Shown: piece after piece, positions 13,626 through 30,800 of the stretch
Position numbering within the stretch: position 1 is the stretch's first letter
Layout of the letters: each line of letters starts with the position of its first letter
From: Stylophora pistillata
Lineage: Eukaryota
Direction: 5' to 3'
Assembly: GCF_002571385.2 (NCBI RefSeq)
Contig: NW_019218066.1
Coordinates: forward strand, 347,497-411,496
DNA: 64,000 bases
Notes under the pieces: generated by a model
What the model was told of the DNA's origin: nothing
Databases searched by the model: none
What the model saw: the letters and a program-made list of their open reading frames with translations, nothing else
Translations under genes and position numbers: made by a program

Positions 13626-14321
13626 TTCTTGCTAATTCGTGGTTTGACAGGTCTTCAAATCTCAGCGAATTAACGAGTGACTCGGAGAGAGCGGTTTGCG
13701 AATTAAGGAAACGTATTAGTCGTGGTGGGAAAGTGGTGGTGTTGTGATCGTTGCACGATTATGGTTATTCTTCTTTCTGGAGGAGACTGAGTGGAACATA
13801 GGAAAAATTTTTTAATCAGAGATGTTGATGAGGGAAACTTCAGAATACGCGGCCACTTTTGACCGTGATGATTGTTATGGAAAGCTATACTGGACAAAAG
13901 TAGTCGAGACTAATTGTTTTAGCCGAGAAATAATTTTGTCTTTCGGGAAATATTTTCAATGGTCCAGAAATATTTTTGACGATCAAGAAAACTTTTTGAT
14001 CGGTCGAAAAATAACTCTCTCTGACAAGAAATATTTTTGATAGTCCAGAAATATTTTAAAGGATCGAGAAAACAATTTCATCAATATTTTTTCGGTATAT
14101 TGAGAATGTATTTTGTCGATCGAGAATTTGTTTTTGAGCGGGAATATCGGAAATGAGACTAAAGAGTCTGCTATGTTCCGAAACTTCATGTTTTATTTTG
14201 TAAACCAACTTGATCTCCCTCTCCCTCACACCGTTCCCATCTCACACTCTGGTCTCCCTCATTTTAACTAAATAATATGATCTTATTGTAGTAGTATAGT
14301 ATATGAGGGATGAAGCTCGTT

Positions 14322-14795
14322 AATATCTTTTGGTAAAATGCTGAGATATTGGGTATTTCCTTTGATAGTAAACTGTTTCCACAGCTTCTTTTTAATTGTA
14401 AGATTCCAACGTTCAACAACAGATGATTTCTCTTCATTTTCAGTTGAATGTAATTTTACATTATTTTATATTAACAATTCTTCAACTTTTTTATTGTAAA
14501 ATTCTTTACCTTTGTCAGTCCATAAGAACTCTGGCTTTCTTCTTTCTTTGAATATGGTTTGAAAGCTTGGCTTATGGATTCACCCTTCTTGTCTTTTAAA
14601 GGTTCAATCCAACCATATTTGCTGAATACATCAATGACTATAAGAAGATATCGATAGCCTTTGTTCCACTTACTGAATTTCTGCATTTCAACAAAATCTG
14701 TAGCCCCTATTTTATCAATATGATTTACAACTATACGCCGCCGAGTAAAGTTGCGCCTGATGGGTTTGTGTAATTCATCCGCTAATTTTACTTGC
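14322..14795 (-). pseudogene. Polinton retroviral-like (rve) integrase, C-terminally truncated
   Basis: LADELHKPIRRNFTRRRI, YLLIVIDVFSKYGW, WTDKGKEF, KSSVVERWNLTIK. Frameshifted, and it abuts the left TIR. Confidence 0.88.
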
Positions 14796-14799
14796 CAGT

Positions 14800-15477
14800 T
14801 TATTTCACTCGAGGGCTTTTTTCGTTTTTTGACTTCTTTTGTTTTACACCGAGACCTAATTTCTGTTTTTTGTCAATCAAGAATCGAGCTGTTTGTCCCC
14901 ATTTTGGCATCTCTCGGTAAGGTATTTTATCTAATGATTTAACCATTTCACGATCGCAATCACCTTTGTTTTTACCCATATGATAACATGTATCATGATA
15001 AGCAGCTATTTCATCTACTTTATTATAAGGCTTAACATTCCATTTTGCAACCTCACCAGTGTTTTTATCATATACTAATTGTTGATCAAGTGGATTATAA
15101 GGTCCCATATATTTATATTGAGAAGGTGTGCATCCACCTTTTGGTTTTGGTAACTTTCCAATCATTTTACGAATGTCAACAGCACCTCCTTTATAAAGTG
15201 GATTAGTTGGACCATAAACACCAAAAGGAGCATACATTTCCATTGGATACCATTGTGAATAATCAATGTTACCACCGCTTATCTTTTTACTTAAATCATT
15301 TCTGAAACGGTCAAGAGCTTGATCGAGATATTTCTTTGCTGTTTGTTTTATTTTATTCTTAGCGTAATCTGATTTGATAGCTTTTGCAGTACCTTGTCGA
15401 GCAAGATAAGCTCCACTGTTGGCTAATCCTTTTAGAACCATTTCACCAATTGAATGACTGTTTCCTACATCAGACAA
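14800..15477 (-). CDS. Polinton parvovirus-type phospholipase A2 (PLA2X-like) virion protein
   Basis: KYMGPYNPL (Ca-binding loop), NKVDEIAAYHDTCY (catalytic HD) and DCDREM. The N-terminal extension has ISGG and YKGG sites. Confidence 0.8.
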   Translation of the reverse strand: MSDVGNSHSIGEMVLKGLANSGAYLARQGTAKAIKSDYAKNKIKQTAKKYLDQALDRFRNDLSKKISGGNIDYSQWYPMEMYAPFGVYGPTNPLYKGGAVDIRKMIGKLPKPKGGCTPSQYKYMGPYNPLDQQLVYDKNTGEVAKWNVKPYNKVDEIAAYHDTCYHMGKNKGDCDREMVKSLDKIPYREMPKWGQTARFLIDKKQKLGLGVKQKKSKNEKSPRVK

Positions 15478-15489
15478 TACTCCACCTGA

Positions 15490-27052: not shown

Positions 27053-27185
27053 TCAGGTATTGGTCTAGGCAATGGTCTAGGTATTGGTATTGGTCTAGGC
27101 ATTGGTATTGGTCTAGGCATTGGTATTGGTCTAGGCATTGGTCTAGGCATTGGTATTGGTCTTGGTCTTATTTGCCTTGGCATTG
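27053..27185 (-). repeat. 18-nt coding minisatellite (PRPIPM)n in the pPolB N-terminus
   Basis: ggtattggtctaggcatt repeats; translation [25 protein letters not shown]. Confidence 0.85.
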
Positions 27186-27759
27186 ATATTAGTTTATAAT
27201 CATGTCGAAACTCTAAAAGTGGTTCAATCATATTTTTTTCATAATCTTGAACCATCTTTTGAACATTATTTTTTGATGTAGTGAATTTAGTTTTCCTTGG
27301 TGTTGGTTTAGGTTGAACAGGTCTAAAATTCCTTATTATGTCAATTAGCTGGTCTTTTGTTAGATTCTGTAATTCGTTTTTATTCATATCTATATTATAT
27401 GTAGATACTTTTATTCCATATTTTCTGAACGCAATTTTTCTTTAAGTAAATTTTGATTTTCCATATTTTCTATACGTAAATTTTCTTTAAGTGTTTTTTT
27501 ATTTTAAACTTTTTTACCAAAAGGATTGAAAAGATTTCCAAAAATAGAAGTGCTATTGTGTTCATCGGCAATGACGTAAAGCTCCGTAGCCTTTTGGGCT
27601 CCGCCGCCAGTTCAATAACCGCTTCGCCGCCTTCTAAAAATATTTCGTCATTTTGTTTCACAAATAATTTTGTAAAAATTATTTGAATATAGTTTTTACA
27701 TTGTTTAGGAAAAATTTTTAAAATTTAGTGTTATTAATTTTGAATCTAGTTTGAAAACC

Positions 27760-27862
27760 GGTTTGAAATTTGATCCGCCATTTTGAGTTTTTGATGAGTC
27801 AGCAGTTTTGAAATTTGATCCGCCATTTTGAATTTTTGATGAATCAGCAATTTTGAAATTTG
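27760..27862. repeat. Polinton subterminal direct repeats
   Basis: tttgaaatttgatccgccatttt..tttttgatga.tcagca, about 2.3 copies. Confidence 0.75.
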
Positions 27863-30800
27863 CATGAAAGTTGCGCGCAATTTTGTGTGAGATGTATTTG
27901 CTAATTGTTTTTAAATTTTTGCGCCGTCATCTTAAGAGTTGGCGGAAAAACGAGCTTAGCCCCTCATATACTATATTACTTATTGTTCAATCATCAGTTA
28001 CTTATTGCAAAAAATCAACCGGAAATCAATCAACGCTGAATAATCTCTCACAAGAATTTTCCTGTCGAGGGAGATTTTTTTTTGTCGGTCGAGAATTTTC
28101 TGTCAGTCGAGAAATTAGATGCCCATATGCTGGTCAGTGGGCCTTTTCGCGCCAAAATATGATCACATGGTACTGACCAAAATGGTAGATCGTAAGGGCG
28201 TACTACTGGTCAACAATACTTCCCTTACCTAGTCAAGGTAAACCTGTTGACAGTGAGTATGAAAGTAGTACAGGATTCTCCCGTTGATATTGCAGAAATA
28301 ATTGTTGCACGTAAGGCATTGAGTTAACTTCGGTTTCATTGTTATTTATGTAATAAAGTTCAGTTTTAGTCGTTGAATTATTTACCAGAATTCCTCCAAA
28401 GTTTGTGGAGAAGTGAAGTTCTGCTTAAAATGATCTGGACTACCATGAAAGCTGTGTGAAACACAACCATTATAACAATTGCAGAAAACTCTTGAAATTG
28501 AAACACCATCATTACTGCTCTTACGTCATAGTCTCGAGGTTAATTAAATCTGAGCTATAGTACACAGTCTATTTGAAACTTAAAAAGCATTGTTACCGCT
28601 TGATGTTAGCCAGTTGTGTGAAACGTGAAACGTCGTCAAGCTTAGGATCCACTGCAGCCCTTGTTGGTTGTCTTGTCAAGCAACGCATTTCTGTCTTCCC
28701 CCGAAAAGATGAAAGCGTTGCGTGACAAAACACCAAACAACAGCTAGTGAGTTTTATTCTCCAGGAATAAAATGCTTTGCACACTTCAGAAATATCTCTT
28801 AGTTTTCAGGTGTATAATTTTTTCCCATTTTATTTTGTCAATACTGGGTCACGACCTGTCTGCTAGCGTGCACTGAAAAATGATCTTCCCATAATGTTTA
28901 GTGTCTGATTACTATGAAGGGGAATTTTTTTTTCAAATTTGTGTTCAAATGATGCTTTCCAAAACATCACCTAGTTTTGCTAATACAAAAAATTAGAAAA
29001 AACCCTCTGATCACCTCAGATGCAAACAGAAAGGATTCTTTTCCTGTACAACACACAGGGAACTTTGATCAATGATCCTGATGAAAAGAAACTAACTAAG
29101 CTGATACGGCATTTCAAGCATTAAGCATTATGATTTAAGATGTTGACCGATAAATCACGAGATGCTTAGTAAACGGATTGTTGTCGAATAGCGTCATATT
29201 CCTTCTTCTAAACGGTCCCCTTCATTGTTTAGATGATTGTGAACTAAGAAATGTGTCTCTTCTAATTCTCAAGAGGCCTTCACGACCATAAGATATGCCA
29301 CAAATTACAAAGATTACCCCCGTAAAATATTCGAAGTACAATTATGCAGTCACTACTCAGGGACTCGGGGTTGGCATGAAATAAAAAAATTTTGTCACGA
29401 AAATGGGACGCGAATCAAACATCACAATAAGGATAGAAGAATCTTTGATAGGTGAACTTTGTGCGCTTAAGTATCACTTCTATGACTTCTTCTTAAAGTG
29501 GAAAACTTGGGTTATGCTGCACTTGTAGAAAAACAATCGTACGCCGCCGTTCGCAAACCTCATAATCCAGGATCTGCTCAACACTATAGTTTTGACCGCT
29601 CAGTTTGCGATCAAAACACCTTTCTGAATAGTAGGCTGGCTGGTTGCCGCCTCCATTTCGCATTTTATTCGCGCTGGAAGATTTTCTATCTAATGAAGAT
29701 GTTAGAAAACCTTGTTTCTTTCAGTCTTAGGTCAGTGTTTAGAATTGGCATATACTGATACTTCTGCGTTAACGTCAGTCAATTCAGAATGAGCGCACAA
29801 TTCCTTAAACAGAATTTAGTAGATAAAGTGTTCTGTTCTCTCTGTCTAAAGGATGAGTACTCACCATTTGATATCTGACACTTCAGCCGTGATGTTATAG
29901 CATCATAAATTTATAACTGAGCTGAAGAAGCAGAACTAAGGATGAATAGAGAGAGAAAGACATGTGATGCTCGAAAAGCTGGATAAACACATTTTTGTCG
30001 GGTATCTTAATTATCTTTAAACGTTTGATTTTTCCTTTTTCCCCATGTAGTTGTGAACTAAGAAATATATCTCCTCTGATTCTCAAGTGACCTTCTCGAG
30101 CTTTACCTACATTCCAAGTAACTAAAGACAAATTTTCTCCGAAAAGTATGCGACGTGAAGCTATTTAGTTGCATCTACATATGTTTGTGGGTTACGGTAA
30201 ATTCAAACCCGTTCTTTTGATCAGAAATAAAATAGTTAAAGTGTTCTGGTTACTCTGTCTGAAGGATATGTACTCACCATTTTATAGATAACGGTCTAGC
30301 CGAGATAGCATCACAATTTGAAAACTGAAGACCCGGTGAACACGATTCAGTAGTTAGGGACGCCTTCGTTTCTGATATCTGCAATTCGTGCGAGGCTAAT
30401 GTTAATATCCCATCGTTCTTTTAGTGTTAAAAAAAAAAAAACAGAGACGCAATACGCACATGACAAGTCATCTTAAATTTGTATAAAAAACGATAAGAAA
30501 GAGACCTTTGCCACATTGTTTTAATTTACTTTAGTGATCTAAGTCATCGCTAAGGACCAAATTTAGCTAAAAATTTATTCTGTTCTGCAAGAAGTTTGTC
30601 CAATACAAGGCTATCTTAGAGTATCCTAGAGGTATGAAATTTGTCTATTTGGGTGTTGTGAGATTTGATATCTTTGACAAGCAGCACAATCCTTAAAAAG
30701 AAGCTTCCTTTTAATTCCTACTTGTAACAGATACAAGTGTGTCAACTTATTCCTAAAAATAAAACAAAGGAAGGAAGATTGTGCTTGCAAATTGATTTTC

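What the first reader, a model, noticed from the sequence alone, without database searches (positions are those of the whole stretch)
14290..27980. Fully delimited endogenous adintovirus-like Polinton with a complete virion module
Seen: both TIRs, a 6-bp TSD and the gene order pPolB, small ORFs, ATPase, minor capsid, core, major capsid, core paralogs, protease, Zn-ribbon, PLA2, integrase. Known: this repertoire defines Polintons and adintoviruses. Inference: a fossil of a virion-forming cnidarian dsDNA virus, probably an undescribed family. It is now dead, with frameshifts and four secondary insertions.
Basis: partly seen in the sequence, partly recalled or inferred. Interest (0 to 1): 0.7.

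Follow-up and report, generated by a model that had tools for sequence, protein, structure and literature searches.

The report
Dead, partly deleted coral Polinton provirus
This is a broken, silent fossil of a Polinton (a self-integrating DNA virus with a double jelly-roll capsid gene), likely from a stony coral; it belongs to a well-known group, has lost parts of its packaging and integration genes, and its sister copies carry the capsid module in either orientation.

Summary
The element is real: 14290-27980, exact 6-bp TSD, AGT-type ends, Polinton genes. An intact homologue of the major capsid gene (77% identical over its N-terminal half) folds as a double jelly roll (pLDDT 89.5, Z 24.8). 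Two claims fail. It is not complete: against sister copies it lost about 0.6 kb at the left end (inner TIR, integrase C-terminus), about 1.1 kb and 3.0-3.4 kb in the middle (both ATPase ends, fibre-like and two conserved genes), and its TIR is a 32-bp remnant (165-366 bp in sisters). It is not an undescribed family: coral polintoviruses are in print for 30 genomes, and close homologues are abundant. The minor-capsid fold stayed untested in effect (poor model). Four insertions are confirmed; three RNA runs show essentially no reads on its genes. Two additions: capsid, protease and polymerase genes diverged from sister copies under purifying selection (dN/dS about 0.2), and sisters hold the virion-plus-integrase module in two orientations that do not form clades. 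Verdict: new member of a known kind, low interest.

The parts
14284..14289 (.). left 6-bp target site duplication (TATTGT)
   Evidence: same 6-mer at 27981-27986
14290..14321 (+). left terminal inverted repeat remnant, 32 bp, begins AGTAGT; followed at once by a deletion of about 0.6 kb relative to sisters
14322..14872 (-). rve integrase, frameshifted near 14560 and cut at its 3' end (about 150 codons with the chromodomain lost)
   Evidence: C-terminus present in 13 of 13 sister contigs that hold the integrase
14803..15655 (-). PLA2-like gene with an N-terminal DUF5679-like Zn-ribbon part; 232-codon open frame, N-terminal part in another frame
   Evidence: PF08398 E 1.8e-7; DUF5679 E 1e-3 in a sister ORF and 1.5e-13 in an IMG/VR relative
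15728..17101 (-). adenain-like cysteine protease, one stop, split by insertion 1
   Evidence: 74% to an intact relative, which gives only a weak Peptidase_C5 hit, E 0.034
15812..16639 (-). insertion 1: likely 5'-truncated LINE 3' end with simple-repeat tail (class recalled; no Pfam hit); recent
   Evidence: 96-100% identical to more than 35 other places in the genome; absent from sisters
17098..17856 (-). 253-codon open frame, likely core protein
   Evidence: an IMG/VR homologue has a weak Adeno_PX hit, E 0.007
17889..18720 (-). small variable ORFs, native to some sisters
18731..20400 (-). double jelly-roll major capsid gene in four pieces: stops, two frameshifts, insertion 2
   Evidence: fold of intact homologue P0005
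19413..19830 (+). insertion 2: likely 5'-truncated LINE 3' end (class recalled)
   Evidence: 39 matches on other contigs at 92-100%; absent from sisters
20423..20845 (-). 140-codon open frame between minor and major capsid genes, basic, predicted amphipathic core or membrane-active protein
   Evidence: relative has only a weak antimicrobial-peptide hit, E 0.016
20862..21594 (-). putative minor capsid (penton) gene, one stop and two frameshifts; fold not confirmed
   Evidence: 70-80% to 247-aa P0271; homologues in 5 of 9 IMG/VR Polinton-like contigs; inconclusive
21674..21985 (+). middle fragment of the A32/FtsK-type packaging ATPase, between deletions of about 1.1 kb and 3.0-3.4 kb
   Evidence: intact relative hits Pox_A32 at E 1e-11; left deletion junction bridged by a contig of run X5
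21974..22935 (.). small accessory ORFs, native and variable
23112..27408 (-). protein-primed PolB pseudogene (about 1250 codons in relatives) with vOTU Cys/His, exonuclease motifs, endonuclease-VII-like insert and decayed polymerase motifs; five aligned pieces with 16 stop symbols
   Evidence: 44-69% to P0355
24037..24091 (.). insertion 3: 55 bp holding a piece of a genomic repeat
   Evidence: extra against 6 of 6 sister stretches compared; 11 repeat matches elsewhere
25280..25663 (.). insertion 4: MITE-like element with a long hairpin
27949..27980 (-). right terminal repeat, outer 32 bp; the sequence inward to about 27700 resembles sister TIRs
   Evidence: junction with host DNA bridged in runs X1, X2, X7
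27981..27986 (.). right 6-bp target site duplication (TATTGT)

Best explanation
It is a dead, internally deleted provirus of the Polinton/Maverick kind, likely of the family Eupolintoviridae (adintoviruses) and likely in a stony coral, whose ancestor would have copied itself with a protein-primed polymerase, been packaged in double jelly-roll capsids and integrated through its retrovirus-type integrase. Shown: boundaries, 6-bp TSD, gene set, breaks, three deletions, four later insertions, silence in three RNA runs, and purifying selection on the major capsid, protease and polymerase genes during the divergence from sister copies. Inferred from known Polinton biology: terminal-protein priming at the AGT ends, vOTU release of the terminal protein, ATPase-driven packaging, protease maturation, PLA2-aided entry, and a 6-bp staggered integration. 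Inferred history: the sisters arrived as already diverged, recombining genomes (not as neutral copies of one master), then decayed; this copy lost about 4.7-5.1 kb and later took up host retroposons and a MITE. It can no longer replicate, package or integrate by itself.
For: TSD and ends; AGT-type ends and 6-bp TSD are the Maverick hallmarks in PMC8097293 (passages). MCP: P0005, 77% identical over 190 residues, pLDDT 89.5, pTM 0.90, best solved matches PBCV-1 and faustovirus MCP, Z 24.8, rmsd 3.2-3.6 A over about 350 residues, ranks 1-16 all jelly-roll capsid-type proteins. pPolB motifs. Integrase, PLA2, ATPase. Same gene set in IMG/VR contigs of 15-18 kb. Deletions. Selection: median dN/dS to sister loci 0.18 (MCP N-half, n=15, range 0.12-0.86), 0.21 (protease, n=10), 0.20 (polymerase piece, n=13) against neutral medians of 0.51-0.82 and 2.5% limits of 0.30-0.51. 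No full-length stop-free MCP among the close (49-79%) matches. RNA depth 0 in nearly all bins without an insertion, at most 0.53.
Against: Folds were made on homologues, not on the broken window genes. The minor capsid model was poor (pLDDT 49.8) and matched nothing clearly. dN/dS of the minor capsid (0.48) and 253-aa ORF (0.49) against sisters lies in the neutral range of the control (minor capsid; the 253-aa ORF had no control of its own). P0005 itself does not hit Pfam DJR-like_dom; only 6 of 77 aligned homologues do. No close MCP relative in IMG/VR by the pattern scan. One of three sisters with both ends located has no matching TSD. No tree with ICTV exemplars could be made. Only 2-6% of each RNA run was read.
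Confidence: 0.93

Rival explanations
1. A purely intracellular self-synthesising transposon whose capsid genes were already passengers when the copies spread.
For: No virion has been seen for this clade here; no close MCP relative in IMG/VR; minor capsid dN/dS against sisters is near neutral.
Against: MCP and protease dN/dS about 0.2 between copies, 0.10-0.15 against metagenome relatives; hundreds of full-length MCP homologues (709 hits); PMC11131425 reports expression of hallmark genes and related MCPs in coral viromes.
Confidence: 0.12
2. A member of a family-level lineage distinct from Eupolintoviridae.
For: The MCP clade escapes the Pfam DJR model and is only 23-24% identical to IMG/VR Polinton MCPs; the only adintovirus-labelled entry among the top 50 BFVD matches is at 10% identity; a divergent (Beta-like) polymerase is joined to a PLA2 gene that PMC8502044 calls typical of Alpha modules.
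Against: All defining adintovirus genes are present; pPolB has 4805 homologues, 77% to Montipora proteins; PMC11131425 places most coral polintovirus MCPs in two clusters together with Adintoviridae; module swapping between Alpha and Beta is already described.
Confidence: 0.1
3. The short TIR and missing genes are assembly artefacts, or the locus is a domesticated, host-used remnant.
For: The assembly has gaps elsewhere; three frames (PLA2 part, 253-aa, 140-aa) are still open; the left junction was not among the pieces shown.
Against: No N in the element; contigs of three samples match unique parts with 0-1 differences, bridge the right end, and one bridges the 21672 deletion junction; no RNA reads on the open frames.
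Confidence: 0.03

Closest known systems
Stony-coral polintoviruses (Stephens et al. 2024, PMC11131425; parts 1-4 of 9 read)
   Same: Integrated 10-50-kb elements with pPolB, rve integrase, MCP, mCP, ATPase, protease, frequent DUF5679 and sometimes VLTF3; tens to thousands per genome; TIRs in a minority.
   Different: This copy is pseudogenised, deleted and silent. Whether it is among their 4,862 elements is unknown: their supplements were not opened.
Adintoviruses, now Eupolintoviridae (Alphadintovirus, Betadintovirus; PMC8502044 parts 1-3 of 6 and Fig. S2 text; taxonomy)
   Same: OTU-bearing PolB, integrase, adenain, FtsK-type ATPase, hexon, putative penton; coral examples of both classes are mapped (Corynactis, Stylophora, Rhodactis).
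   Different: The polymerase looks Beta-like (two intact homologues give no PF03175 hit) while PLA2 is described as an Alpha-module gene; no gasdermin-like gene was recognised. Genus not determined.
Vertebrate Mavericks (Barreat and Katzourakis 2021, PMC8097293; passages)
   Same: AGT-repeat ends, 6-bp TSD, two gene modules, mostly degraded copies, core genes under purifying selection.
   Different: Their architecture is described as generally conserved; here two orientations of the module coexist among 72-91% identical sisters; PLA2 gene present.
Polinton-like contigs in IMG/VR (L177-L180)
   Same: pPolB 41-44%, homologous MCP, mCP, ATPase, protease, core ORF; PLA2 in L177, L179, L180; integrase in L179, L180.
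   Different: Intact frames, other gene orders, MCP only 23-24% identical.

Membership tests
Polinton/Maverick | protein-primed family B polymerase | tested here: met
   44-69% to 1246-aa P0355 over five pieces; Exo I/II and decayed motifs A/B seen; PF03175 E 6.5e-6 on one piece
Polinton/Maverick | retrovirus-like (rve) integrase | tested here: met
   59-70% to a relative with rve E 4.5e-9 and Chromo E 2.9e-8; 3' half deleted here
Polinton/Maverick | terminal inverted repeats with AGT-type ends | tested here: met
   28 of 32 bases, left end AGTAGT; a remnant, sisters 165-366 bp
Polinton/Maverick | 6-bp target site duplication | tested here: met
   TATTGT both sides; also in 2 of 3 sisters with both ends located
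Polinton/Maverick | double jelly-roll major capsid protein | tested here: met
   on intact homologue P0005:
Polinton/Maverick | single jelly-roll minor capsid protein | tested here: inconclusive
   model pLDDT 49.8, best Z 4.9, profile search E 1.5 to a penton; conserved position and homologues in Polinton-like contigs
Polinton/Maverick | A32/FtsK packaging ATPase | tested here: met
   fragment, 72% to a relative with Pox_A32 E 1e-11; both ends deleted here
Polinton/Maverick | adenovirus-type maturation protease | tested here: inconclusive
   relative hits Peptidase_C5 only at E 0.034; homologues in 6 of 9 IMG/VR contigs
Eupolintoviridae (adintoviruses) | OTU-like domain in the N-terminal part of PolB | tested here: met
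   Cys and His motifs at the expected places in P0355 and in the window; motif patterns recalled, domain not folded
Eupolintoviridae (adintoviruses) | clade with the ICTV exemplars in PolB and hexon trees | not testable with these tools
   no exemplar sequences were returned by any search; the stored supplement of PMC8502044 is cut before the FASTA files
Alphadintovirus | archetypal PF03175-type PolB | tested here: not met
   P0355 and P0323 give no PF03175 hit at E 0.05; a minority of homologues carry a precomputed PF03175 label
Alphadintovirus | PLA2X gene | tested here: met
   PF08398 E 1.8e-7; the pX-like tail was not tested
Betadintovirus | GasderminX and cupiennin-like genes | tested here: inconclusive
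   no gasdermin Pfam hit; the 140-aa ORF between penton and hexon has only a weak peptide-family hit in a relative
Polinton-like viruses (PLV) | helicase and tyrosine recombinase in place of pPolB and rve integrase (as the usual state, PMC11131425) | tested here: not met
   pPolB and rve integrase present
bona fide virus | virions formed | not testable with these tools
   only indirect: selection on capsid gene

The most novel reading that the evidence does not exclude
This copy marks an unnamed coral lineage of eupolintoviruses that joins a Beta-like polymerase to a PLA2-bearing capsid module, spread as a recombining virus population, and repeatedly flipped its whole virion-plus-integrase module (about 12 kb) relative to the polymerase arm, giving two genome isomers in one host genome, likely by template switching during protein-primed replication.
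Probability: 0.3. Interest if true: 0.45.

Novelty: new member of a known kind. Interest (0 to 1): 0.22.

Why it matters
As a single locus it matters little: degraded Polintons are common in animals, and coral genomes hold tens to thousands. The family adds a small piece to the open question of whether Polintons make particles, because the capsid gene diverged under purifying selection between copies in one genome. The two orientations of the capsid module, scattered over the trees, would point to frequent rearrangement or recombination during Polinton replication if long reads confirm them.

Tried and rejected
Exact pattern search for the 20-base end found only this copy's two ends: ends differ between sisters. 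Minor-capsid fold: poor model and no clear match in BFVD, PDB or Pfam, also with a 32-sequence profile; the ESM Atlas held neither of two homologues. PDB sequence search with the MCP profile: 0 hits. IMG/VR scan with the MCP: none. Motif search in the stored adintovirus supplement: none, file cut. Earlier scan findings: none in three answered look-ups. Rejected: that the window's gene order is a private inversion (five sisters share it); that 17889-18198 or 22578-23021 are insertions (present in single sisters); that module orientation marks two subfamilies (one clade of orientation A rejected for MCP p 2e-6, PolN p 0.003, PolExo p 0.01, not for INT p 0.086). No inverted repeat bounding the flipped module was found in C346 or C271. 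The insertion-free joint 15811-16640 in two runs may come from sister copies and is not read as an empty allele. Module inversion in print: not seen in one five-term search (listing only) nor by the word 'inversion' in PMC10748475 and PMC8097293; this is a thin search.
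Full report
Boundaries. The 6-mer TATTGT flanks 14290-27980 on both sides, and the outer 32 bases of the two ends match in inverted orientation at 28 positions; beyond that there is no similarity. The TSD has a chance of about 5e-4 at a fixed site, and the next best inverted match of the 32-mer in the window is 19 of 32. AGT-repeat ends with a 6-bp TSD are the hallmark of Mavericks (PMC8097293, passages). The element holds no N. Contigs of three samples from two studies match its unique parts with 0-1 differences and bridge the right junction (one may be the source of the assembly; the left junction was not among the pieces shown).

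Genes. Nearly all genes lie on the minus strand. Against natural relatives: pPolB 27408-23112 in five pieces with 16 stop symbols, with vOTU-type Cys and His motifs, exonuclease motifs, an endonuclease-VII-like insert and decayed polymerase motifs (motif patterns recalled; vOTU role from PMC11071308, passages); ATPase fragment 21674-21985 on the plus strand; putative minor capsid 21594-20862; a 140-codon ORF; major capsid 20400-18731 in four pieces; a 253-codon ORF; protease 17101-15728; DUF5679-like part plus PLA2 15655-14803; integrase 14872-14322.

Capsid folds. The MCP N-terminal piece has 709 homologues among 776 candidates, many of 417-430 aa at 72-79%. P0005 (421 aa; 77% over 190 residues, 50-57% over the other pieces), folded with a 77-sequence alignment, gives pLDDT 89.5 and pTM 0.90. 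Its best solved matches are the PBCV-1 and faustovirus MCPs (Z 24.8, rmsd 3.2 and 3.6 A, about 350 residues), then poxvirus scaffold, Sputnik, ASFV and mavirus; BFVD agrees. The minor-capsid test failed for lack of a good model (pLDDT 49.8), and a 32-sequence profile found nothing significant in PDB or Pfam. Its label rests on position, size and homologues in 5 of 9 Polinton-like IMG/VR contigs.

The copy is not complete. Stretches around sister copies on 19 contigs of the genome were fetched; these are the best matches, not all copies. Their aligned pieces are mostly 72-91% identical to the window. TIRs are 169 bp (C271), 165 bp (C355), at least 283 bp (C346) and 366 bp (C354), and TSDs match in C271 and C355 but not C327. 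The window lacks about 0.6 kb right after its 32-bp left repeat, which removes the inner TIR and the integrase C-terminus with its chromodomain (present in 13 of 13 sister contigs with an integrase); about 1.1 kb between minor capsid and ATPase (two ORFs found in 9 and 12 of 19 contigs); and 3.0-3.4 kb after the ATPase fragment (ATPase C-terminus present in 7 of 7; fibre-like gene in 8 of 19). A contig of run X5 bridges the 21672 junction. Four insertions came later: two likely LINE 3' ends (class recalled; 96-100% and 92-100% identical to more than 35 and to 39 other places), a MITE-like hairpin element and 55 bp in pPolB.

Dead and silent. In three raw RNA runs (2-6% of each read, 96% likeness) reads fall on the inserted repeats; bins without an insertion have depth 0, apart from four with traces of at most 0.53. 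Among the close MCP matches in the genome (49-79%), none is full length and free of stops, whereas a second, distant group (29-38%) has many open frames of 430 codons or more (99 of 182 candidates scored).

How it worked. Pairwise dN/dS (Nei-Gojobori, stop codons left out) between window and sister loci has medians of 0.18 for the MCP N-half (n=15, range 0.12-0.86, median dS 0.52), 0.21 for the protease (n=10), 0.20 for a polymerase piece (n=13), 0.35 for PLA2 (n=11), 0.48 for the minor capsid (n=11) and 0.49 for the 253-aa ORF (n=9). A neutral control on four of these pieces gave medians of 0.51-0.82 and lower 2.5% limits of 0.30-0.51. So most divergence in MCP, protease and polymerase arose while they were needed; the minor capsid result does not depart from neutral. 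This fits separate integrations of an already diverse, capsid-dependent population better than decay of copies of one master (inference; pairs are not independent). The replication, packaging, maturation, entry and integration steps are taken from known Polinton and adenovirus biology, not shown here.

Two isomers. In the window, C271, C582, C327, C355 and C20 the integrase end of the module faces the far TIR (A); in C346, C160, C164, C340, C515, C1525, C354 and C329 the module is turned round, ATPase side towards the TIR and integrase convergent with pPolB (B); five other contigs could not be assigned. Both forms have examples without an assembly gap at the link (A: window, C355, and C271 apart from an 11-base gap inside pPolB; B: C346, C160, C164, C515, C1525). 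Trees intermingle them; a single clade of A is rejected for MCP, PolN and PolExo but not for INT (unassigned rows and three duplicate-contig rows left out). No bounding inverted repeat was seen. Recurrent flipping or recombination is the likely cause; the mechanism is open.

Comparison with what is known. PMC11131425 (parts 1-4 of 9 read) reports 4,862 such elements in 30 stony-coral genomes, most clustering with Adintoviridae, with DUF5679 and VLTF3 genes, expression of hallmark genes and related MCPs in coral viromes. PMC8502044 (parts 1-3 of 6, passages, Fig. S2 text) defines adintoviruses by this gene set and maps three coral examples and one Hydra example. The genera now stand in Eupolintoviridae. 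Closest named homologues are Montipora pPolB (77%) and Oculina MCP (74-75%), so a stony-coral host is likely. The polymerase looks Beta-like by Starrett's Pfam criterion, yet a PLA2 gene is present; the same pairing occurs in IMG/VR contigs L177, L179 and L180, so it is not special to this element. PMC10748475 (passages, section 8) and PMC13215967 (passages) did not settle the class. Unseen supplements (sequence files of PMC8502044, all of PMC11131425) bear on the placement and on whether this element is already catalogued.

Verdict. A genuine but ordinary fossil Polinton, less complete than claimed: new member of a known kind, interest 0.22.

Noticed in passing
G000 C346:42.3-61.8 kb versus C271:269280-290399 and the window: The virion-plus-integrase module occurs in two orientations relative to pPolB among sister copies; a short palindrome sits at the internal junction of the turned form (C346 near 48.7-48.8 kb).
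   Followed up: partly
G000, 30-38% MCP matches (e.g. many small contigs): A second, distant Polinton group in the same genome keeps many full-length open MCP and minor-capsid frames.
   Followed up: no
G000 C355:50677-58994: An 8.3-kb internally deleted sister with TIRs, 6-bp TSD, integrase and pPolB but no capsid genes.
   Followed up: partly
L128:3-1364: A relative's virion module lies next to a helicase-like ORF rather than pPolB within the stretch held (label from sequence look, not tested).
   Followed up: no
L083:9061-9834: HNH endonuclease ORF (Pfam HNH_3, E 4.5e-17) next to the integrase of a relative.
   Followed up: no
window 35433-37211: Long foldback: 524-bp arms 100% complementary with 6 bases between, inside 368-bp arms at 93%; a foldback element or an assembly artefact.
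   Followed up: no
window 50795-58693: About 7.9-kb element with inverted ends of roughly 600 bp (77-92%) and a 362-codon frame at 53026-54111; likely a DNA transposon.
   Followed up: no
window 8113-12869: 155-bp direct repeats around 637- and 521-codon frames; likely an LTR retrotransposon.
   Followed up: no
window 44874-47666: 78-bp inverted repeats at 96% around 2.6 kb.
   Followed up: no
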